Assembly: GCA_017613085.1 (NCBI GenBank)
Contig: JAGAEL010000039.1
Coordinates: 1 to 42,795, forward strand
Length of the DNA: 42,795 nucleotides
Direction of reading: 5' to 3'
Origin: Kiritimatiellia bacterium
GTDB lineage: Bacteria; Verrucomicrobiota; Kiritimatiellia; RFP12; UBA1067
In this document: in pieces, positions 1,458 to 11,404 of the stretch
How the letters are laid out: each line of letters opens with the position of its first letter
Numbering within the stretch: position 1 is the first letter of the stretch
The notes under the pieces: model-generated
What the model was told of the DNA's origin: nothing
The model's input: the letters and a program-made list of their open reading frames with translations, nothing else
Database searches by the model: none
Translations under genes and position numbers: made by a program

Positions 1458-1534
1458 GGGGGATTAGCTCAGTTGGTTAGAGCACTTGCTTGACATGCAA
1501 GGGGTCGGTGGTTCGAGTCCACTATCTCCCACCA
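1458..1534 (+). tRNA. tRNA-Val(GAC)
   Basis: Acceptor GGGGGAT/ATCTCCC, D-arm GCTC-AGTTGGTTA-GAGC, anticodon stem CTTGC/GCAAG with loop TTGACAT, T-loop TTCGAGT, encoded CCA. Confidence 0.97.
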
Positions 1535-1538
1535 TTCG

Positions 1539-1588
1539 GAAATGCGTCTCACCCAGTCAGAAACGGGAGGGGCGCATTTCGCGTTTTT
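1539..1588 (+). terminator. probable intrinsic terminator after the tRNA
   Basis: GAAATGCGTCTC...GGGGCGCATTTC stem (with G-U pairs) followed by GCGTTTTT. Confidence 0.5.
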
Positions 1589-1595
1589 ATGTCGA

Positions 1596-1811
1596 GGGAG
1601 GGACGCGCTTCGTCGCGTCCGTTCCCATGCGGCGCGTGGGGACACGCGCCCTCCCGCACGACAGCCGACAGCCGACAGCCGACAGGCGCCATCCGGTCGC
1701 GACGGGACGCGACCCTCCCGCTCTTTTCTCTGCGTGAGATCATTTTCCCGTCGCGTCCGGAACGTGAAAACGCCAACAAGGGACAACACACAATTATACG
1801 ATTCGCGTTGC
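1596..1811. repeat. mosaic REP-like patch 1: three GGGAG-hairpin units, a (CGACAGC)n tract and blocks shared with patches 2 and 3
   Basis: Units at 1596-1620(+), 1631-1655(-) and 1695-1719(-); 7-mer x4 at 1659-1686; reverse complement matches 8654-8740 and 42682-42750. Confidence 0.85.
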
Positions 1812-1910
1812 TTTCGCCAAAGTTTAACCTTGTACGCGGAGGGGAATTGTGGTACGGTTTGCGTGTTGTGCTTTCCGTGTTGCGTAGTCGTCAACGTGAA
1901 AGGAGAAGAC

Positions 1911-2045
1911 ATGAAAACACAGTTGCTTCTGGTCGTCATCGGTCTGGTTCTGCTTGTTTGCGCGGGATGCGTCAGTAATCCCGAAGTCGGACAAGTGCTT
2001 TCCGGGGTCTTTACGGGTATCGGGGCGGGCTTGTCGGGGTTATGA
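1911..2045 (+). CDS. 44-aa predicted small lipoprotein
   Basis: AGGAGA RBS at 1901; MKTQLLLVVIGLVLLVCAGC signal with lipobox; Gly-rich tail. Confidence 0.65.
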   Translation: MKTQLLLVVIGLVLLVCAGCVSNPEVGQVLSGVFTGIGAGLSGL

Positions 2046-2113
2046 CCCGCACTGGAGAAAAGCTTTGCCCGGTAGGGCGTTAACTGGCATCGAGAGGGCA
2101 AAGGGGTACGGTT

Positions 2114-3325
2114 ATGAAAAAATTTTTGATTACGCTCGTTTTGTTGGCGGCCGCCGGGGGCGGCGCCTGGTATTGGCTTCAGCGGTCCAAGGGGCAGGCC
2201 GTTCCGGTCGCCCGCTTCCGCACGGAGGAGATCGCGAAGGGGAGCCTGGTCCAGGATGTGACGGCGACGGGGACGATCGCGCCGATCAAGGAGGTCGAGG
2301 TCGGCACCCAGGTCAACGGACCGATCCTCCACCTCTATGCCGATTTCAACTCGGTCGTGTCGAACGGCCAGGTTATCGCCGAGATCGACCCCGCCGTCTA
2401 CAACGCCGCCTACACGAAGGCGAAGGCGCAGTTGCGCTCGAACGAGGCGAACGTCGAGAACATCAAGGTGAAACTGGCGTTGGCGGAGAAGACGCTCCGG
2501 CGCAACCAGGAGCTTTCCAAGAAGCAGATGGTCGCGCAGTCCACGCTCGATAACGCGGAGGCGGAGGTCGGTTCCCTCAAGGCGCAGCTCAAGGTTGCGG
2601 AGGCGACGGTCGAACAGAGCCGTGCGAGCGCGTCCGAGGCGGAGACCAATCTCGGCTACTGCACCATCCGCTCTCCCGTCAACGGCGTGGTCATCTCCCG
2701 CGACGTGGACGAGGGGCAGACGGTCGTCTCCTCCATGTCCGCGCAGAAGCTCTTCACGATCGCGGTGGATCTGAAACGCATCCAGGTGGAGGCGAGCGTC
2801 CCCGAGGCGGATGTCGGCATGGTGAAGCTCAACCAGGTCGTGACGTTCACGGTGGACGCCTATCGCACGACGTTCAAAGGCACGGTGAAGCAGATCCGCC
2901 TGGCGTCGACGACGACCAGCAACGTCGTCACCTATCCCGTCATCATCGAGGCGGACAACCCCGACGAGAAGCTGTTCCCCGGCATGACCGCGAACATCTC
3001 CATCAAGGTGGCGGAGGCGAAGGACGCGGTGGTGATCCCCGCCTCGGCCCTCCGTTTCACGCCCGCCGGCTTTACGAGCGACATCAAGGGGCGCAAAATC
3101 TGGCTGCTCGGCGAGGACGGTATGCCGGAAGCGGTCGGGGTCCGCGTCGGCATCACAGACGGGACGCATTACGCCGTCCGTGAAGGGGGAGAGGAACTGC
3201 TCGGTCGCAAGGTCGTCACCGGCATGATGGCGGCGAAGAAAATCGACAACGAGACGAAAAACCCGTTCATGCCGCAGCGCCCGAATTCGGGTAAAAAGAA
3301 CAGCGGGCCGCCGCCGCGTATGTAG
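2114..3325 (+). CDS. macA: MacA-like efflux periplasmic adaptor subunit
   Basis: N-terminal TM anchor, VTATGTI..VEVGTQVNG, coiled hairpin, IRSPVNGVVI; lies upstream of ABC genes. Confidence 0.85.
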   Translation: MKKFLITLVLLAAAGGGAWYWLQRSKGQAVPVARFRTEEIAKGSLVQDVTATGTIAPIKEVEVGTQVNGPILHLYADFNSVVSNGQVIAEIDPAVYNAAYTKAKAQLRSNEANVENIKVKLALAEKTLRRNQELSKKQMVAQSTLDNAEAEVGSLKAQLKVAEATVEQSRASASEAETNLGYCTIRSPVNGVVISRDVDEGQTVVSSMSAQKLFTIAVDLKRIQVEASVPEADVGMVKLNQVVTFTVDAYRTTFKGTVKQIRLASTTTSNVVTYPVIIEADNPDEKLFPGMTANISIKVAEAKDAVVIPASALRFTPAGFTSDIKGRKIWLLGEDGMPEAVGVRVGITDGTHYAVREGGEELLGRKVVTGMMAAKKIDNETKNPFMPQRPNSGKKNSGPPPRM

Positions 3326-3338
3326 GGAAACACGCGCC

Positions 3339-4049
3339 ATGCTGATCGAAGTCAAAGATTTGGTGAAGTCCTACAAGGTCGGGGATATGGAGACCCACGC
3401 CTTGGACGGGGTTTCGCTCACAATCGATTACGGCGAGTTTGTCGCGATCATGGGGGCTTCCGGGTCCGGCAAAAGCACGCTTCTGAACATCCTCGGCTGC
3501 CTCGACGTTCCCACATCCGGCTCCTACCTGCTGGACGGTGTCCAGGTGAGCGGTATGTCGCGGAGCGAACTCGCGCACATCCGGAACCGCAAGCTGGGGT
3601 TCGTATTCCAGAGCTTCAACCTCCTCGCCCGCACGAGCGCCCTCGAAAACGTCGAACTCCCGACGTTCTACTACAAGGGGTTCCCCTCCGGCGAACGTCG
3701 TGCGCGGGCGACGAAACTGCTGGAGCGCGTCGGCCTCGGTTCGCGCATCATGAACACGCCGGGACAGCTTTCCGGCGGACAGCAGCAGCGCGTCGCCATC
3801 GCCCGCGCGCTCATGTGTTCCCCCCCCGTCCTCTTCGCCGACGAACCGACGGGAAACCTCGATACGAAGTCGAGCGTCGATATCATGAAGCTCTTCACGG
3901 AGCTGAACGAGGAGGGAATCACCATCGTCATGGTGACGCATGAAAACGACATCGCCCGCTACGCCAAGCGGCAGATCGTCGTGCGCGACGGGAAGATCAT
4001 TCATGGCGCGCGGTTCGAATCGGCGGATGATCCGGAGGCGCATACCTGA
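3339..4049 (+). CDS. ABC transporter ATP-binding protein (MacB/LolD family)
   Basis: GASGSGKST Walker A, LSGGQQQR signature, [12 protein letters not shown]. Confidence 0.95.
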
Positions 4050-5290: not shown

Positions 5291-6163
5291 ATGAAAATGA
5301 AAATCGCATACCTCGCCGCCTTTCTCCTCCCGTTTGCGACTCCGGCCGCGGAGAACCATGCGGATTCTGTCGTGAAGGAAATCCTGTCCGCCGTCGCGGC
5401 GGTCAAGGCCGCCGTCCCCGACGCCGTGCCGATGGCGTTCTGGGATTTCGACGGGACGATCATCAAGGGAGATGTCACGGAAGGGCTTGAGGAAAACGGG
5501 GAACAACGTTTCAAAGGGCTTGTCGAGGAGACAACCTACGCCGGCCTCTGTTCCGTGTACAAAGGACGGGACGGGTGGTGGCAGTACAGCAAACGGGACT
5601 ATCCGCGTATGAACGAAATCGGACGCTGGCTGGCCTGGCCGTACAACGCGCAGTTGTTCGAGGGGCTTACGGTGGCGTCGCTCGACGCCTTCTGTGCGGA
5701 GAAATTCAAGTCGGTGTTCCGTAAGTGGTATTTCGTCTCTTCGCTCGCGATGCTGGACGCTCTGGAAAAGGCGGGGGTTGAAAACCACATTGTCTCGGCG
5801 AGTCCGGAACTGTTCGTGCGGAACGCGGCGGAGACGCTGGGGCTGCCGCGTTCGCGTTTCAACGGAATCCGGGTCGCGGAACACGGCGGCCGGTTCACGA
5901 CGCAGCTGGAGTACCCGATCCCGTACGCCGAGGGAAAGGTCGAAATCGTCCGACGGGTTCTCCTCTCCCGTCCGCACGGAATCGCCGTGGCGGGCTTCGG
6001 CAACAGCTATTCCACGGACGGCGCGTTTCTGTGTTACATCGTTTCGCAGCCTCTTCCCGGCGGTGCGCGCGGCACGGCGCTGATGATCAACGGCGGAAAG
6101 CCGAAGCCGGGATTCGAAGGTCTTTTCCGTTGCGTGGAACAGACCGACACCGCCGGACGGTAG
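5291..6163 (+). CDS. secreted HAD-superfamily hydrolase (phosphoserine-phosphatase-like)
   Basis: Signal peptide, WDFDGT motif I, IVSAS motif II, GK, GNSYSTD motif IV. Confidence 0.75.
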   Translation: MKMKIAYLAAFLLPFATPAAENHADSVVKEILSAVAAVKAAVPDAVPMAFWDFDGTIIKGDVTEGLEENGEQRFKGLVEETTYAGLCSVYKGRDGWWQYSKRDYPRMNEIGRWLAWPYNAQLFEGLTVASLDAFCAEKFKSVFRKWYFVSSLAMLDALEKAGVENHIVSASPELFVRNAAETLGLPRSRFNGIRVAEHGGRFTTQLEYPIPYAEGKVEIVRRVLLSRPHGIAVAGFGNSYSTDGAFLCYIVSQPLPGGARGTALMINGGKPKPGFEGLFRCVEQTDTAGR

Positions 6164-6203
6164 TTCCCGTTTGTGCCGCAAGGGTGTCAGGAAGGAAGCG
6201 TTT

Positions 6204-8528
6204 ATGAAGACCAGGATATCGTTCCTTATTTGTGCCGCGTTTGTTCTGGTTTTGTCTGTTTGTGCCGATTCATCCGATTCGTTCGCGTCGCAGCGGGCGG
6301 AGTTCGCGAAGTATTACAAACAGATCACCGGCAGGGACGCGCCCGAGGGCATGGTGCGGTTTGCCATCGATCCGAAGGTGTCGAAATCGGGCAGGGATGC
6401 GTACAGGATTGTGTCAATCGAAGGGGAGGGTCGCGCTTTGTCGCGGCCACTCGCCGAAAATGGCCGCGACGAAGCGCGGCCCTCCCGCGTCGCCATCACC
6501 GGTTCCAACCTGAGAAGTGTCTGGTACGGTCTCTACGACCTCCTTGAGCGGCGCGGCGGATGCCATTGGTTCTGGGACGGCGACGTGGTTCCGAAGAAGG
6601 AATCCATCGATCTCTCGAATCTTGACGTCCACGAGGAGGCGCACTTCGAGTACCGCGCCATCCGCTATTTCGCGCATCGAGGTCTTACGCGCTTCCAAGC
6701 GGAACAGTGGGGACCGGAGGACTGGAAACGTGAGATCGACTGGATTCTCAAACGCCGCCTCAATACGTTCATGCTCCGTATCGGTCAGGACGACCTTTTC
6801 CAGCGGGCGTTTCCCGACGTGTGCAAGTACCCCGATCCGTCGAAGCGGCTTCCCGGCGCGACCTCCAGCTACAACGACCGTACGCTCTTCTGGAGCCTGC
6901 AGTATCGCGGCAAGCTGCGCCAGAATATTCAGAAGTACGGATTCGAGCGCGGACTCATGGTGCCAGAGGATTTCGGCACCATGACGCACTGGTATTCGCG
7001 CACGCCCGAGGACTGGCTCGCGAACATGAAGCCGAAGTTCCTGCCGCAGGCGCACGGTTCGGCCGCCGGACGTAACGGCCTCGTCTGGGACATCCGCGAC
7101 GACAAGTGGGCGGAGGCGTACTGGAAGCTGACAAAGACGGCGGTGGAGCAGTACGGAGCGGGGGCTCCGGATCCGAGGCTTCTCCACACCATCGGACTGA
7201 GTGAACGCGGCGTGTACAAGGAACGGGACAAGAACATCGCACTCAAGATCGAAGCTCTTCGGAAATTCCTCGCCCTCGCTCGACGCGACTACCCTGACGC
7301 GAAGGTTCTGTTATCCGGCTGGGACTTCTACGGCGGCTGGAAGGCGGACGAGGTGCGCGCGTTCCTGCCGACGCTCGACAAGAACCATGTGATCCTCTGG
7401 GACTACGAGGCGGATTGTCAGGAGGAAAGGGATACCTTCGTCGATTGGGATGTAATCGGAAAGTTTCCCTACACCTATTCGACCATCCTTGCGTTTGAGG
7501 CGGCGCTCGACGCACGGGCGGACTACAAGTTCTTTGAAAAGCGGCAGCGGCTCGTGCAGGACGATCCGATGTGCGTGGGTTGGATACACTGGCCGGAGTC
7601 GGCCCACACGGATACGTTCTTCCTTGACTTCTTTACCGTGAACGCCTGGGCGGACAAGCCGGTTCCGCATGAGAAGGTTCTGGATGCCTTCTGCGTCGGA
7701 CGCTACGGCGGGAACGCGGAATGGATGAAATCCGTCTGGTCGGATGTGCTGGATGCCTCTGCGTTGCGCCGCTGGGACGAGTATTCGGAATCGAATCTCA
7801 ACTGCGCCCAGCACCTGATTTATCACGGCCTGTTGAAGAAGGGTTACGACAAGCGTCCTACGAAGTGGGGACCTCCCGTCGCGAAGGCGATGACGGCATT
7901 GCGGCGTCTTGAGGACGTGCCGTGGGATGATGCGTTCATCCGGCGGGACACGATCGATATCGTGCGCATGGTTCTCGACCGGTTGATCGTCCTGAAGATC
8001 GACGAACTGGGATGCGCTCTCGCCGCATGGCGCAATGGCAGGGATGACGGTGCGTCACTTGTTGCCCGCGCACATGAACTGGCTTTGCTCTTTGATCGCC
8101 TTGCCGATGTTCTTGCGCTGCACACCGACTACTCCCTCTGGGAGTCCTACCAGCGGCTTGACGCGATCGAGAAAATCCAGAATCCGAATTTCTCCAAGAC
8201 GCTCTTCGAGAATGGCGTCAACCAATACTGCCTGAGCCACCAATATGAGGCAATGCGGTACGTGGTCGCGCCGGTTGCGGCGGAGCTGGCGGAGCGGATC
8301 GCCAAGGCCGTGGCGTCCGGCGACCGTAAGGTCGGGTTCTCCGCCCGTCCAGTATTTGAGAAAATCCGCCAGGACGCGAAGGCGAAGCCGCTTGAATCGC
8401 TCAAGCCGGCTACGCCGCGAACCAAAGAGGAGTTCCGTAAGGTGATACGGAGTTTGTCGAAGGAGGACAGGGAAGGGGTATGCAGGGCGTATCCGCGAAT
8501 CCTGCAAAAGCGGCAAGAACGGGACTAG
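6204..8528 (+). CDS. secreted glycoside hydrolase, GH89 (alpha-N-acetylglucosaminidase)-like TIM-barrel protein
   Basis: Signal peptide; GH20/GH89-type N-domain (D.Y.I...ITG....VWYGLY); YR...W..EDWKREIDW...LN segment resembles the NAGLU barrel start. Family assignment is tentative. Confidence 0.55.
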   Translation: MKTRISFLICAAFVLVLSVCADSSDSFASQRAEFAKYYKQITGRDAPEGMVRFAIDPKVSKSGRDAYRIVSIEGEGRALSRPLAENGRDEARPSRVAITGSNLRSVWYGLYDLLERRGGCHWFWDGDVVPKKESIDLSNLDVHEEAHFEYRAIRYFAHRGLTRFQAEQWGPEDWKREIDWILKRRLNTFMLRIGQDDLFQRAFPDVCKYPDPSKRLPGATSSYNDRTLFWSLQYRGKLRQNIQKYGFERGLMVPEDFGTMTHWYSRTPEDWLANMKPKFLPQAHGSAAGRNGLVWDIRDDKWAEAYWKLTKTAVEQYGAGAPDPRLLHTIGLSERGVYKERDKNIALKIEALRKFLALARRDYPDAKVLLSGWDFYGGWKADEVRAFLPTLDKNHVILWDYEADCQEERDTFVDWDVIGKFPYTYSTILAFEAALDARADYKFFEKRQRLVQDDPMCVGWIHWPESAHTDTFFLDFFTVNAWADKPVPHEKVLDAFCVGRYGGNAEWMKSVWSDVLDASALRRWDEYSESNLNCAQHLIYHGLLKKGYDKRPTKWGPPVAKAMTALRRLEDVPWDDAFIRRDTIDIVRMVLDRLIVLKIDELGCALAAWRNGRDDGASLVARAHELALLFDRLADVLALHTDYSLWESYQRLDAIEKIQNPNFSKTLFENGVNQYCLSHQYEAMRYVVAPVAAELAERIAKAVASGDRKVGFSARPVFEKIRQDAKAKPLESLKPATPRTKEEFRKVIRSLSKEDREGVCRAYPRILQKRQERD
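6424..6486. repeat. intragenic REP doublet (63-bp palindrome, in frame)
   Basis: 26-nt arms GGGAGGGTCGCGCTTTGTCGCGGCCA / TGGCCGCGACGAAGCGCGGCCCTCCC with an 11-nt loop; same unit as in the intergenic patches. Confidence 0.9.
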
Positions 8529-8825
8529 TAAAAACAAACCACAAATTGACACAAATTGGTGCCCCGGCCACGTTCCCGTGAGCGGCGCGTGGGGACACGG
8601 AAGAAAGGGACAAACGAGACAAACAGGACAATCATTGTCCTTGTTGTCGTTTTATCTCACGCGGAGGAAAGAGCGGGAGGGTCGCGCCCCGTCGCGACCG
8701 GGTGGCGGCTGTCTGACGTCGGGTGTCGCCTGTCGTGCGGCGCGTGAGGACACGCGCCCTCCCGTGCGTGACATCCCCCCCGTTTCGCCTGTTTCCCGTG
8801 GTTACGTGTTCACACGATTCGCCCG
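8491..8825. repeat. mosaic REP-like patch 2
   Basis: Units at 8675-8699(+), 8739-8763(-) and a partial at 8584-8599; micro-repeats CACAAATTG x2, GACAAAC, CCTTGTTGT. Confidence 0.85.
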
Positions 8826-8848
8826 TCGGCAATCCCCAAACATTCTTA

Positions 8849-8877
8849 TAGACCCCGCAACTTTGTTATAGTACACT
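8849..8877 (+). promoter_or_regulatory. putative sigma70 promoter of mutS
   Basis: TAGACC-N17-TACACT. Confidence 0.5.
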
Positions 8878-8905
8878 AAGGGGCAACCGTTTTTGAAAGG
8901 ATGTC

Positions 8906-11404
8906 ATGGCTGACGAAGAACTGACCCCGATGATGCGCCAGTACCGGCGCATCAAGCAGGAACTGCCGCCCGATGTGATTCTGATGTTCCGGCTCGGGGA
9001 TTTTTATGAGATGTTTTTTGACGACGCGGTGGTCGCGGCCCCGATTCTGGGGCTGGTCTTGACCCGGCGCCAGAACTATCCGATGTGCGGTGTGCCTTAC
9101 CACGCGATCGATTCCTACCTCGCCAAATTCATCCGTGCGGGGAAAAAGGCCGCCATCTGTGAGCAGATGGAAGATCCCTCGCTCGCGAAGGGAATCGTCC
9201 GGCGCGAAATCACCCGCGTCGTCACGCCGGGTACCGTCACCGAGGAGAACATCCTCGAGGCGACGCGCAACAATTACCTTGCCGCCGTGTACGCCGGGAA
9301 ACAGGGGATGGGGTTGGCCCTCCTGGATCTCTCGACGGGTACGTTCACCACCGAGGAGACGGAGGATGCCCGTCAACTTGTCGAACTTCTCCGCCAGTAC
9401 GCGCCGAGCGAGTGCCTGACCGGAAAGGAGTCTGCGCAGGATCCGCGTATCTGCGACGTCATTGCCTCCGGTGCGGCAGGGACGATCACGAACATCGAGG
9501 ACTGGATGTTCGGCTACGACTGTGCGCGCGACACGTTGCTTCGCCACTTCCAAGTCCACTCGCTCGAAGGGTACGGATGCGAGGGCAACGCGCTGCTGGT
9601 CTGCCCCGCTGGCGCGCTGCTGCAGCACGTGCATGACGCGCTCCGCCATGCTGTCGACCACGTCAGGAGCTTGAAGGTCGGGCGAGGGGACGACCGCCTG
9701 GTGTTGGATGAGACGACCTGTTCGCATTTGGAGCTCTTGCCCAAGCGGGGCGGCGACGTTTCCCATTCCCTGTTCGGTGTGCTGGATAACACACAGACCC
9801 CAATGGGGGCAAGGCTTCTGCGGCAATGGCTCGTACGTCCACCCCGTCGGCGCGACGAGATCTGCGCCCGCCACGATGCCGTCGCGTTTTTTGTGAAGGA
9901 ACGCCTGACGCTCTCTTCGCTGCGCGACAAGCTCGGTGCCGTCCGCGACCTTGAACGGTTGATTGCCCGGCTCGGAACCGACCGCGGGAACGCCCGCGAG
10001 GCGCGCGCGCTTGCCGCCTCGCTTCTCCCCGTCCCGTTTCTGCGCGACGAACTCGCCGCCGCAGCAGGGGTGTCGGTTCTTGCCGAAATCGTGGGCGGGC
10101 TCCGTGCACTCCCGGAACTCGTCCGCCTTATCCAGACGGCGATCGACGACGAGCCCGCGACGGGGTTGAAGGAGGGAGGCATTATCCGGCCCGGATACAA
10201 CGCGGAGCTGGACGAATTGCGCGCGCTTGCCACGCAGGGGCACGAATGGCTCGCGCAGTATCAGGCGAAAGAACAGGAGCGTACCGGCATCAAGAACCTC
10301 AAAGTCCGCCACAACAAGGTATTCGGGTTCTACATCGAGATTTCCAAGGGGCAGGTCCCGCTCGTCCCGCCTGAATACGAACGCCGTCAGACGCTCGTCA
10401 ACGCCGAACGGTTCGTCACGCCGGAACTGAAGGAGTACGAGCAGAAGATTTTCGGCGCACAGGAAAAGTCGATGGCGATGGAGTATGAGCTTTTCTGCGC
10501 CGTCCGCCGCGAGATCGCCGCCCGCACCGCCGAGATTCAGGAAACGGCGGATGCCGTCGCCCGGTTGGACATCCTGCTTTCCTTCGCGGACCGCGCGCTC
10601 GCCCTCGGTTACGCTCGCCCTGTGATGACGGAGGGCGACACGCTGCGGATTGTCGACGGACGCCATCCGGTGATCGAACAGCTGCCGGATGCCGAGCCGT
10701 TCGTGCCGAACGACACGCTTCTCGATTGCGGCTTGAACCAGATCGCCCTGATTACCGGGCCGAATATGGCGGGGAAGTCCACCTACATCCGGCAGGTCGC
10801 GCTGATCGCGATTATGGCGCACGTGGGATCGTTCGTTCCCGCAAAGGAGGCGGAAGTCCCGTTGCTCGACCGCGTCTTCACCCGCGTCGGGGCAGGGGAC
10901 GACCTCGCCAAGGGACGCAGCACGTTCATGGTCGAAATGCAGGAGACGGCGAATATCCTCAACAACGCCACGGAGAGGAGCCTTATCGTCTTGGACGAGA
11001 TCGGTCGCGGCACCAGCACGTTCGACGGTATCAGCATCGCGTGGGCGGTCGCCGAGTATCTGCACAACACCGCCCGCGTCAAGGCGAAGACGCTCTTCGC
11101 GACGCACTATCACGAACTGACCGATCTTTCGCTCACCCTCGGCGGGGTGAAGAACTACACCGTGCAGGTGCGCGAGCGCGGGGACACCGTGGTTTTTCTC
11201 CGCCGGATCGCGCCGGGGTGCGCCGACAAGAGTTACGGCATCCAGGTGGCGCGGCTCGCCGGAATGCCGGCGGAGGTGATCGCGCGGTCGAAGGAGATCC
11301 TGCACAACCTGGAGGAGGGGGAGGTCGAAGGCGGCCTTCCCAAACTCGCCCGGACGGCCCGCCGCAAACAGGTGGACGCGCCGGGGCAGATGACGTTATT
11401 CTAA
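8906..11404 (+). CDS. mutS: DNA mismatch repair protein MutS
   Basis: TPMMRQY, FRLGDFYEMF, GPNMAGKSTYIRQ, DEIGRGTST, FATHYHEL, C-terminal clamp motif QMTLF. Confidence 0.98.
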   Translation: MADEELTPMMRQYRRIKQELPPDVILMFRLGDFYEMFFDDAVVAAPILGLVLTRRQNYPMCGVPYHAIDSYLAKFIRAGKKAAICEQMEDPSLAKGIVRREITRVVTPGTVTEENILEATRNNYLAAVYAGKQGMGLALLDLSTGTFTTEETEDARQLVELLRQYAPSECLTGKESAQDPRICDVIASGAAGTITNIEDWMFGYDCARDTLLRHFQVHSLEGYGCEGNALLVCPAGALLQHVHDALRHAVDHVRSLKVGRGDDRLVLDETTCSHLELLPKRGGDVSHSLFGVLDNTQTPMGARLLRQWLVRPPRRRDEICARHDAVAFFVKERLTLSSLRDKLGAVRDLERLIARLGTDRGNAREARALAASLLPVPFLRDELAAAAGVSVLAEIVGGLRALPELVRLIQTAIDDEPATGLKEGGIIRPGYNAELDELRALATQGHEWLAQYQAKEQERTGIKNLKVRHNKVFGFYIEISKGQVPLVPPEYERRQTLVNAERFVTPELKEYEQKIFGAQEKSMAMEYELFCAVRREIAARTAEIQETADAVARLDILLSFADRALALGYARPVMTEGDTLRIVDGRHPVIEQLPDAEPFVPNDTLLDCGLNQIALITGPNMAGKSTYIRQVALIAIMAHVGSFVPAKEAEVPLLDRVFTRVGAGDDLAKGRSTFMVEMQETANILNNATERSLIVLDEIGRGTSTFDGISIAWAVAEYLHNTARVKAKTLFATHYHELTDLSLTLGGVKNYTVQVRERGDTVVFLRRIAPGCADKSYGIQVARLAGMPAEVIARSKEILHNLEEGEVEGGLPKLARTARRKQVDAPGQMTLF

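What the first reader, a model, noticed from the sequence alone, without database searches (positions are those of the whole stretch)
6424..6486. REP doublet inserted in frame inside a glycoside hydrolase and translated as a 21-aa loop
Seen: a 63-bp palindrome of two inverted REP units (26-nt arms; both mismatches are G-U compatible) lies in the N-terminal domain of the 6204-8528 CDS. It keeps the frame and encodes about GEGRALSRPLAENGRDEARPS between the strands DAYRIVS and VAITGSN, where related domains normally have a short beta-turn. Known: coding palindromic insertions are documented mainly for Rickettsia RPEs, while REPs are typically extragenic. Inference: this repeat family is creating new protein sequence.
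Basis: partly seen in the sequence, partly recalled or inferred. Interest (0 to 1): 0.75.

Follow-up and report, generated by a model that had tools for sequence, protein, structure and literature searches.

The report
REP hairpin pair translated inside glycosidase
A small hairpin-forming DNA repeat that normally lies between genes sits in frame in a loop of a sugar-cleaving enzyme of a rumen bacterium, and the same loop holds other such repeats in most related enzymes; repeats inside genes are already known, the repeatedly occupied loop is the unusual part.

Summary
Window 6424-6486 is an inverted pair of 26-nt arms with an 11-nt spacer. It lies in frame in the intact 774-aa CDS 6204-8528, a distant GH89/NAGLU-like hydrolase of a rumen Kiritimatiellae MAG.

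- **Repeat family:** the arms belong to a dispersed family, consensus GGGAGGGNCGCGCTTCGTCGCGNCC. It has 278 units in the 2.43-Mb draft and 0 in a shuffled genome.
- **Protein context:** the pair encodes residues 74-94, the low-confidence loop of a beta-hairpin (strands 65-72 and 95-100).
- **Assembly:** contigs from three DNA runs of three studies bridge it unchanged.
- **Genome-wide:** about 19 of 166 evaluable repeat clusters lie in frame in genes, including GH123, GH2, GH20, GH88, GH106, GH78 and an MmeI-like enzyme.
- **Recurrence:** of 119 close homologs, 30 have a turn of 5 aa or less here and 70 carry 10-58 aa. At least nine other hairpin repeat types occupy the site. Insert type partly follows the genome, not the gene tree.

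Translation is inferred, because no RNA or peptide evidence was obtained. In-frame REP dimers encoding 20-30 aa are already published (PMC3733652). This scan has also reported in-frame hairpins in other Kiritimatiellae genomes. The shared landing site is the new element, and its mechanism is unresolved.

The parts
6204..8528 (+). Intact CDS of 774 aa: secreted or lipoprotein-like, distant GH89/NAGLU-like glycoside hydrolase that hosts the insert
   Evidence: ORF. Pfam NAGLU TIM barrel 39.7 bits against a cut-off of 25.5. Foldseek to human NAGLU 4xwh gives TM 0.69/0.74, and it also matches CpGH89 2vca. 1133 homologs, the best at 75-82% identity over 94-98% of the length.
6396..6419 (+). Codons 65-72 (DAYRIVSI), the beta-strand before the insert
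   Evidence: DSSP of the AlphaFold model, strand E65-72. The motif DAYxIxS is conserved in homologs.
6424..6449 (+). Left REP unit in forward orientation, read as GEGRALSRP. The unit is itself a small hairpin: GGTCGCG, loop CTTTGT, CGCGGCC.
6450..6460 (+). 11-nt spacer between the arms (CTCGCCGAAAA), the loop of the long hairpin
6461..6486 (-). Right REP unit in inverted orientation, an exact match to the subfamily consensus. On the + strand it is read as (N)GRDEARPS.
6486..6503 (+). Codons 95-100 (RVAITG), the beta-strand after the insert
   Evidence: DSSP of the model, strand E95-100. The motif xVTITGSN is conserved.
1596..1621 (+). Another unit of the same REP family elsewhere in the window
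   Evidence: 3 mismatches to the 26-mer..
1695..1719 (-). A further unit of the same family in inverted orientation, forming a spaced convergent pair with 1596-1621
   Evidence: hit list from the scan. One search shows a neighbouring inverted repeat, arms 1692-1707 and 1746-1761.

Best explanation
**What it is.** A compact inverted doublet (REPIN-like) of a genome-wide REP-type hairpin repeat became lodged in the DNA encoding the tight beta-turn of the N-terminal domain of a GH89-like hydrolase. Its unit head is GGGAG, and each unit is a 7-bp stem with a 6-nt loop.

**Why it is tolerated.** The unit has no stop codon in any of its six frames. The inserted length preserves the frame. The gene therefore stays open, and the repeat is most likely translated as a disordered surface loop about 20 aa longer than the ancestral 2-4 aa turn, tolerated rather than required.

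**Shown here.**
- The palindrome, its family membership and the intact frame.
- The short turn in outgroup homologs and the loop position in the model.
- Presence of the doublet in independent assemblies.
- About 19 in-frame clusters of the same family in other genes.

**Inferred.**
- Translation.
- Neutrality.
- The way the repeat arrived.

**The occupied turn.** In the rumen clade, at least nine other hairpin repeat families occupy this turn. Several were shown to be multi-copy in their own genomes. Paralogs within one genome often carry that genome's own family. My preferred account is a 'REP nest'. An early insertion made a permissive, hairpin-bearing site. Resident repeat families later overwrote, extended, partly deleted or re-seeded it, through hairpin-directed insertion or short-tract recombination.
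For: **The repeat**
- Inverted repeat at the stated coordinates.
- 278 family units against 0 in a shuffled genome.
- Convergent pairs predominate: 44 of 81 adjacent pairs.
- The consensus has no conserved flanks.

**The gene**
- Continuous ORF with full-length homologs.
- AlphaFold loop 73-94 lies between strands, with pLDDT below 50 for residues 75-89.
- All outgroup loci, and 34 of 59 sites overall, have a turn of 5 aa or less.
- Contigs from three DNA runs of three studies span 6424-6486 with no indel and no base difference inside it.
- Same-genus relatives hold the same REP unit elsewhere, but their GH89-like genes lack the doublet.

**Other in-frame copies**
- 17 of 166 evaluable clusters are in frame by a codon-usage model. 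WIN (this window's CDS 6204-8528) and PAR (its paralog on contig C194) bring the total to 19.
- Pfam domains confirm the host genes, and the encoded peptides are listed.
- A second case was checked against homologs. The GH88-like gene on C155 has an 18-aa REP insert where 13 of 16 homologs have a 4-aa turn.

**The hotspot**
- 70 of 119 homologs carry 10 aa or more at this turn.
- Their DNA forms hairpins.
- Four insert types give 9, 38, 8 and 9 copies in their own genomes, against 0 in controls.
- At least 19 changes of insert type are needed on a 55-row tree.
- The own-genome paralog on C194 carries one unit of the same rare subfamily at the same site.
Against: - **Expression.** No RNA or peptide evidence exists. 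The single RNA run laid covered only 6821-6921, at 90-95% likeness.
- **Hairpin cost.** A -61 kcal/mol hairpin inside an mRNA could impede translation or attract RNase III, so neutrality is an assumption.
- **Transposase.** The only Y1-transposase-like ORF scores 26 bits on Pfam and 45 bits on NCBIfam's RAYT model, whose cut-off is 80. It has no unit of this family within 1.5 kb. The genome is only 67% complete.
- **The nest account is not demonstrated.**
  - Flanks of WIN and PAR are no more alike (0.77 and 0.80) than the next 270 nt (0.84). This argues against recent flank conversion.
  - Same-genome pairs overall are barely more alike than different-genome pairs: 0.775/0.856 against 0.755/0.840.
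  - WIN and PAR nevertheless share an ATYGAA prefix that is not part of the family consensus.
- **Methods.**
  - The in-frame count rests on a home-made codon model, not on a gene caller.
  - The tree is a quick-search tree and could be disturbed by recombination.
Confidence: 0.82

Rival explanations
1. Site-directed insertion. The DNA around this turn, whose flanks are conserved, is a preferred target for the machinery that moves REP-type hairpins. Each genome's family therefore landed there independently, many times.
For: - Insert type is polyphyletic on the gene tree, with at least 19 changes and 10 states on 55 rows.
- Paralogs in one genome share that genome's family: 4 of 4 in one MAG, 3 of 5 in another, and 2 of 2 in G000.
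- WIN and PAR flanks show no raised identity.
- My arithmetic: about 199 clusters in 2.43 Mb gives roughly 1e-3 chance per 10-bp site, so two of two paralogs hit by chance is very unlikely.
- A GH88-like gene shows the same same-site recurrence.
Against: - No conserved target motif flanks the 88 aligned units.
- Empty sites differ in sequence: GGGGAT, GGCGAA, GAAGGGAGC and GCGGGGAAG.
- Insert boundaries differ between types.
- No transposase was tied to the family.
Confidence: 0.25
2. Spread by short-tract gene conversion or recombination between paralogs, and between co-resident strains. The N-terminal region is 84-86% identical at the DNA level among paralogs, so one insertion per genome was copied into sister genes.
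For: - DNA identity is high in this region between all paralog pairs: 0.84-0.86 downstream.
- WIN and PAR share the non-consensus prefix ATYGAA, and both units carry the CTTTGT loop variant and end in GGCCA, as few of the 88 aligned units do: T at unit position 16 in 18, A at position 26 in 15.
- Two same-genome pairs with the same insert type have raised flank identity: L005-L016 at 0.90/0.95 and L024-L056 at 0.90/0.87.
- L017 carries a TASVQQQ piece otherwise seen in another paralog clade.
Against: - WIN and PAR differ at 5 of the 21 nt directly upstream and 3 of the 21 nt downstream of the insert.
- Mean flank identity is almost the same for same-genome and different-genome pairs.
- The same insert types also occur across different genomes and clades.
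Confidence: 0.25
3. The hairpin is kept for an RNA-level or DNA-level function inside the gene, such as a translational pause after the signal peptide, mRNA stabilisation, or a protein-binding site. On this reading the peptide is a by-product.
For: - The structure is very stable: -61 kcal/mol, z = -8.1.
- Both arm mismatches are G-U compatible on the sense strand.
- In three runs the palindrome is unchanged, while nearby positions 6366, 6380, 6394 and 6530 vary.
- The site is occupied by some hairpin in most close homologs.
Against: - Two G-U compatible mismatches out of two is weak evidence, roughly 1 in 4 for transitions by my own estimate.
- 30 of 119 close homologs and all outgroups lack any insert.
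- Occupants range from single 25-nt hairpins to 126-nt arrays.
- The same family is read in at least three frames in unrelated proteins, with no common position.
- No terminator-like or promoter-like site was found there.
Confidence: 0.1
4. The gene is a decaying pseudogene, or the palindrome is an assembly artefact.
For: MAG assemblies break and mis-join at repeats. 53 of 278 units lie within 300 nt of a contig end.
Against: - The ORF is uninterrupted and aligns over 94-98% of its length at 75-82% identity. Hundreds of columns are invariant in a 42-sequence alignment.
- Contigs from three independent DNA runs bridge the site with 0 gaps.
- The codon-model score and the fold are those of a normal enzyme.
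Confidence: 0.03

Closest known systems
Intragenic REPs of the GTAG/CGTC-tagged palindrome families (Di Nocera et al. 2013, PMC3733652; abstract and passages read)
   Same: Both are 20-40 nt GC-rich hairpin units in high copy number. Both are mostly extragenic and often lie in inverted dimers. In both, a minority sits inside known genes in frame. The paper states that more than 50% of such inserts are dimers or groups encoding 20-30 aa, with the highest GTAG count in Opitutus terrae.
   Different: The unit head here is GGGAG, not GTAG or CGTC. The host is a rumen Kiritimatiellae MAG, and the host genes are mainly glycoside hydrolases rather than replication and repair genes. The passages I read do not describe the same protein loop being occupied by many different families across homologs. 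The paper's Additional file 3, which lists intragenic REPs, was not opened.
REPIN-RAYT systems (named from scan notes and search listings; PMC8049555 seen only as a listing and abstract start)
   Same: Both are an inverted pair of REP units that can fold into one long hairpin. Both form a dispersed population within a genome, and related genomes carry the same family.
   Different: No RAYT was tied to this family. The one Y1-transposase-like ORF is below NCBIfam's RAYT cut-off and has no flanking units. The commonest doublets in this genome have 40-78 nt spacers, against 11-13 nt here.
Rickettsia palindromic elements, RPEs (Ogata et al. 2000 and 2002, as summarised in passages read in PMC10969869)
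   Same: Both are palindromic repeats inserted in frame into unrelated genes. Both are translated as extra peptide segments judged compatible with the fold.
   Different: RPEs are about 100-150 bp, belong to Rickettsia and share no sequence with this element. Here the units are 25-26 nt REP-type hairpins, and the doublet is 63 bp. This is a resemblance in behaviour, not family membership.
Earlier reports of this scan on other Kiritimatiellae and CPR genomes
   Same: Both concern in-frame hairpin repeats in glycosidases and other genes of gut and rumen Kiritimatiellae.
   Different: Those reports concern other genomes and other DNA. No look-alike of this stretch is in the scan's index. None of the summaries shown mentions a shared site occupied by many families across a protein family.

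Membership tests
REP (repetitive extragenic palindrome) sequences | Short (20-40 nt) imperfect palindrome able to form a stem-loop | tested here: met
   The unit is 25-26 nt, with stem GGNCGCG/CGCGNCC around a 6-nt loop. Positions 8 and 23 co-vary: A..T in 47 units, T..A and C..G in others.
REP (repetitive extragenic palindrome) sequences | High copy number, dispersed over the genome | tested here: met
   278 units in 199 clusters, spread over many of the 206 contigs, and 0 in a shuffled genome.
REP (repetitive extragenic palindrome) sequences | Predominantly extragenic location | tested here: met
   By a codon-usage model, 17 of 166 evaluable clusters are in frame in CDS, 19 with WIN and PAR. 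The other 149 are not. The model is home-made and no gene caller was available.
REP (repetitive extragenic palindrome) sequences | GTAG or CGTC tetranucleotide tag at one end (superfamilies of PMC3733652) | tested here: not met
   The head is an invariant GGGAGGG, so GGAG stands where GTAG would be. Several inserts at the same site in other genomes do start with GTAG: L001, L003, L007 and L024.
REPIN / RAYT system | Units paired in inverted orientation as the common form | tested here: met
   44 of 81 adjacent pairs are convergent (+-), 7 divergent and 30 direct.
REPIN / RAYT system | A RAYT (Y1 HUH transposase) gene flanked by units of the family | tested here: inconclusive
   There is one Y1_Tnp hit, in the 407-aa ORF at L118:1291-2514 (match at C128:2036-2335), scoring 26.1 bits. 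NF047646 scores 45.1 bits against a cut-off of 80. There are 0 units within 1.5 kb. The genome is 66.9% complete, so a RAYT may be missing.
Rickettsia palindromic elements (RPE) | 100-150 bp element of the named RPE families in Rickettsia | tested here: not met
   The insert is 63 bp, built of 26-nt units, and the host is Kiritimatiellae. Sequence likeness to RPEs was not tested, because no RPE sequence was at hand.
Glycoside hydrolase family 89 (alpha-N-acetylglucosaminidase, NAGLU) | Match to the NAGLU TIM-barrel model above its cut-off | tested here: met
   PF05089 scores 39.7 bits against a cut-off of 25.5. Only profile positions 208-335 of 336 match. There is no NCBIfam hit.
Glycoside hydrolase family 89 (alpha-N-acetylglucosaminidase, NAGLU) | Three-domain NAGLU fold | tested here: met
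   Foldseek to 4xwh_A gives E 1.9e-18 and TM 0.69/0.74. It also matches 2vca and other CpGH89 entries. Sequence identity is 12-15%. Model mean pLDDT is 79.
Glycoside hydrolase family 89 (alpha-N-acetylglucosaminidase, NAGLU) | Conserved catalytic glutamate pair and alpha-GlcNAc-ase activity | not tested
   Residue-level superposition was not done, and activity cannot be tested with these tools.

The most novel reading that the evidence does not exclude
The beta-turn of this GH89-like family, and similar loops in other secreted glycosidases of rumen Kiritimatiellae, is a self-perpetuating landing pad for hairpin repeats. REP mobilisation would then be directed to pre-existing hairpins or to this conserved DNA. 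Each lineage would install its own repeat family there, and the result would be a lineage-specific hypervariable surface loop. That would make REP-type elements a regular, targeted source of protein loop diversity rather than rare accidents. It would also give a natural system for studying how REPs choose their targets.
Probability: 0.25. Interest if true: 0.7.

Novelty: new variant of a known kind. Interest (0 to 1): 0.5.

Why it matters
In-frame REP or RPE insertions are a known curiosity, and this case adds a new repeat family and host.

What could matter more is the scale and the recurrence. Roughly one in nine clusters of this family is coding. One beta-turn is occupied in 70 of 119 close homologs by at least nine different hairpin families.

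If the recurrence reflects targeting or hairpin-seeded turnover, it bears on an open question: how REPs and REPINs move and where they land.

There are also practical points:
- Such loops inflate apparent sequence divergence.
- They break assemblies: 53 of 278 units lie near contig ends.
- They create repeat-derived peptides that annotation pipelines and protein clustering may misread.

Tried and rejected
- **RNA evidence.** One RNA run (X20) was laid. It gave two contigs at 90-95% likeness on 6821-6921 only and none on the palindrome, so it says nothing about expression.
- **RAYT link.** The single Y1-transposase-like ORF is sub-threshold for the RAYT model and has no flanking units. I do not claim a RAYT.
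- **Terminator or promoter reading.** No such sites lie in 6100-6700.
- **First codon model.** It was trained on all long ORFs and was contaminated by antisense ORFs. I retrained it from Pfam-confirmed genes.
- **Spanning ORFs.** 151 ORFs that merely span a unit are mostly spurious in this GC-rich genome. Only Pfam-supported or model-supported ones were counted.
- **Uncounted N-terminal cases.** C23 (DNA methylase), C38 (YgbB) and C206:929 (N6_N4 methylase) have the unit far upstream of the domain. It may lie before the true start, so they were not counted as coding.
- **Target motif.** Alignment of 88 units with 12-nt flanks gave none.
- **Flank-identity test for gene conversion.** The difference between same-genome and different-genome pairs was almost nil.
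- **Intergenic region 8500-8920.** No inverted repeat was found at the settings used.
- **Scan index.** Nothing is recorded for this genome or for look-alike DNA.
- **Literature.** The search was too loose to be useful. One search added nothing beyond PMC3733652.
Full report
**Abbreviations.** WIN is this window's CDS 6204-8528. PAR is its paralog on contig C194 of the same genome.

**1. The observation.**
- Window 6424-6449 and 6461-6486 form an inverted repeat with 26-nt arms, 92% complementary, and 11 nt between them.
- Both mismatches put a T in the left arm opposite a G in the right arm.
- The sense RNA folds into an unbroken stem of -61 kcal/mol. The z-score is -8.1, and 0 of 200 shuffles fold as well.
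- The ORF 6204-8528 (774 aa from the ATG) reads through it as DAYRIVS-IEGEGRALSRPLAENGRDEARPS-RVAITGSN.

**2. The repeat family.** The window is contig C18 of a 2.43-Mb draft with 206 contigs, 61% GC and 66.9% completeness.
- **Consensus.** The arm is one unit of a dispersed family. Alignment of 88 copies gives an invariant GGGAGGG, then a 7-bp stem (GGNCGCG/CGCGNCC, with co-varying positions 8 and 23) around the loop CTTCGT. The flanks are not conserved.
- **Copy number.** A degenerate pattern with up to 2 mismatches finds 278 units, against 0 in a shuffled genome.
- **Arrangement.**
  - The units fall into 197 clusters at a 150-nt gap limit and 199 at 110 nt.
  - Of 81 adjacent pairs, 44 are convergent, 30 direct and 7 divergent.
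  - Spacers are mostly 40-78 nt, so the 11-13 nt spacer here is at the short end.
- **Reading frames.** The unit has no stop codon in any of six frames, as read from the consensus.
- **Distribution.** The same unit occurs in same-genus and same-family genomes: G005, G008, G010, G014 and G021.
- **Classification.** By size, structure, copy number and pairing it is a REP/REPIN-type element. Its head is GGAG rather than the GTAG or CGTC of the published superfamilies.
- **Transposase.** No RAYT could be tied to it. There is one Y1_Tnp-like ORF at 26 bits. NCBIfam's RAYT model scores 45 bits against a cut-off of 80. No unit lies within 1.5 kb.

**3. The host gene.**
- Pfam finds only the end of the NAGLU TIM barrel, at 39.7 bits against a cut-off of 25.5.
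- An AlphaFold model built on 42 homologs (mean pLDDT 79, pTM 0.81) matches human NAGLU 4xwh (TM 0.69/0.74) and Clostridium perfringens GH89, at 12-15% identity.
- It is therefore a distant GH89-like hydrolase. Catalytic residues were not checked.
- The database holds 1133 homologs, and those that carry names are from Kiritimatiellae. Fetched loci come from rumen and gut MAGs.
- In the model, strands 65-72 and 95-100 flank a loop 73-94, whose residues 75-89 have pLDDT below 50.
- The palindrome covers codons 74-94, which is exactly that loop.

**4. Is it an insertion?**
- **Fetched loci.** Of 79 fetched loci, 55 gave 57 recognisable sites, and the two genes of this genome (WIN and PAR) bring the total to 59. 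Twenty-four loci gave none; most of these are distant or truncated.
  - 34 sites have a turn of 2-5 aa.
  - 3 sites have 7 aa.
  - 22 sites have 10 aa or more.
- **Outgroups.** All outgroup clades have a 3-4 aa turn.
- **Closest orthologs.** Three of the closest orthologs (L002, L004, L006) have a turn of 2-3 aa. L001, L003 and L005 carry other inserts.
- **Same-genus relatives.** Several of their GH89-like genes are about 60 nt shorter here, and others carry a different insert; none has this doublet.
- **Independent assemblies.** Contigs from three DNA runs of three studies span the palindrome with no gap and no difference inside it. They differ from the window at 6366, 6380, 6394 and 6530.
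- **Conclusion.** The doublet is a real, lineage-specific insertion in an otherwise intact gene. It is neither an artefact nor a pseudogene.

**5. Does the family create protein sequence elsewhere?**
- A codon-usage model seeded on Pfam-confirmed genes classified 17 of 166 evaluable clusters as in frame within coding sequence. Another 33 clusters were too close to contig ends to judge.
- WIN and its paralog were missed because they lie near the gene start. With them the count is 19.
- Pfam confirms hosts for many of these:
  - GH123, with three units inside one domain match;
  - GH2, GH20, GH88 and GH78, plus two GH106 genes;
  - DUF4838 and peptidase C10;
  - an abhydrolase/GH5 protein;
  - an MmeI-like restriction-modification enzyme, with three units.
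- The units are read in at least three frames, giving peptides such as GEGRASSRS, REGRASSRP, GRDEARPS, GGPRFVAA, DGTKPVPP and RTGQSPSLP.
- One further case was checked against homologs. The GH88-like gene on C155 has an 18-aa REP doublet where 13 of 16 homologs have a 4-aa turn. The other three carry different inserts at the same place.

**6. The unexpected part: a shared site.**
- **Occupancy.** Among the 120 best homologs, 119 have a recognisable site. Thirty have a turn of 5 aa or less, 19 have 6-9 aa, and 70 have 10-58 aa.
- **Nature of the inserts.**
  - They fall into at least nine types besides this one.
  - At the DNA level they are single hairpins, inverted pairs or tandem hairpin arrays.
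  - Several have a GTAG head.
- **Multi-copy status.** Four types were searched in their own genomes. They gave 9, 38, 8 and 9 copies, against 0 for the reversed control pattern.
- **Tree.** On a 55-row tree built without the insert, the types need at least 19 changes, and occupancy needs at least 9.
- **Type partly follows the genome.**
  - Four of four paralogs of one MAG carry the GWRAS type.
  - Three of five paralogs of another carry the AQAA type.
  - Both paralogs of this genome carry this family. The second one (C194, 62% aa identity) has a single unit of the same rare subfamily, plus a shared ATYGAA prefix.
  - Other genomes hold mixed types.
- **Second site.** A much weaker site lies near residues 612-618, where about 14 of 120 homologs have inserts, some with REP-type peptides.

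**7. Mechanism of recurrence.** Chance plus tolerance alone seems insufficient. About 199 clusters in 2.43 Mb gives roughly 1e-3 per 10-bp site, by my arithmetic. Three accounts remain open.
- **Old insertion with turnover ('REP nest').** An early insertion is later replaced or eroded by resident families.
- **Site-directed insertion.** Each family lands here independently.
- **Short-tract conversion between paralogs.**

The evidence bearing on these accounts is as follows:
- DNA identity near the site is high between all paralogs (0.84-0.86). It is hardly higher within genomes than between them, at 0.775/0.856 against 0.755/0.840.
- The WIN-PAR flanks (0.77 and 0.80) are not raised.
- No target motif was found.
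- I favour the nest account, but only weakly.

**8. Comparison with what is known.**
- Passages read in PMC3733652 state that REPs inside genes occur in several species. Counts are highest in Opitutus terrae and R. conorii. More than half are dimers or groups encoding 20-30 aa.
- That paper judges such insertions likely neutral. It also warns that N-terminal cases may be annotation errors. That warning does not apply here, because the upstream part is conserved and carries the signal peptide.
- Passages read in PMC10969869 summarise the RPE work.
- This scan has already reported in-frame hairpins in other Kiritimatiellae and CPR genomes.
- The basic phenomenon is therefore known. New here are the GGAG-headed family, its roughly 11% coding share, and the repeatedly occupied turn.
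- I found no description of such a shared site in the passages I read or in the listings of three literature searches. Additional file 3 of PMC3733652 was not opened and might bear on this point.

**9. Verdict.**
- Interest is moderate, at 0.5.

Noticed in passing
G000 contig C194:14227-16467 (locus L113): This is a paralog of the window's GH89-like gene at 62% aa identity. It carries a single unit of the same rare REP subfamily at the same turn, read as IEGEGRALSRPP. It shares the non-consensus prefix ATYGAA with the window copy.
   Followed up: yes
Homolog alignment, query residues about 612-618 (window about 8037-8057): This is a second, weaker insertion site, in a loop between two long helices. 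About 14 of 120 homologs have 6-23 extra residues here. Some are clearly repeat-type, such as ADTARPEAAPY and TGTTGILPVDEKA. The window's gene has none.
   Followed up: partly
G000 contig C74:12832-15998 (locus L093): An MmeI-like restriction-modification enzyme has three REP units in frame, between and inside the methyltransferase and target-recognition domains. They are read as GGPRFVAA...TKPAPP...DGTKPVPP.
   Followed up: partly
G000 contig C44:14389-17466 (locus L087): A GH123-like protein has three REP units, one single and one compact doublet, inside a single Pfam domain match.
   Followed up: partly
G000 contig C128:1826-3049 (L118:1291-2514): A 407-aa ORF has an N-terminal HUH (DHFHGII) Y1-transposase-like domain and a long C-terminal extension of unknown kind. 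It scores below the RAYT cut-off and is not flanked by the GGGAG family.
   Followed up: partly
G000 contigs C12, C148, C169, C197 (for example C197:13060-13500): Extragenic units are often part of a longer composite repeat. The unit is followed by GAGTGGCGGCTGTCGG...TGTCGTGCGGGAGGGCGCGTGTCCCCACGC, and three such copies lie in a row on C197.
   Followed up: no
G000, compact in-frame doublets on C44:15674-15725, C64:1440-1491, C155:10901-10952: Most coding doublets pair two different hairpins. One is GGCCGCG..CGCGGCC and the other GGACGGG..CCCGTCC, with 2 nt between them, enclosed by GGGAG...CTCCC. The window's doublet instead pairs two near-identical units and can form one long stem.
   Followed up: no
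window 1596-1621 and 1695-1719: Two further units of the family lie at the 3' end region of a 628-aa minus-strand ORF (1469-3355) that has no Pfam match. Whether they are coding there was not settled.
   Followed up: no
window 8906-11404: An 832-aa ORF on the plus strand lies just downstream of the hydrolase. I took it for MutS-like from its sequence motifs only; no family search was run. It was used only as training data for the codon model.
   Followed up: no
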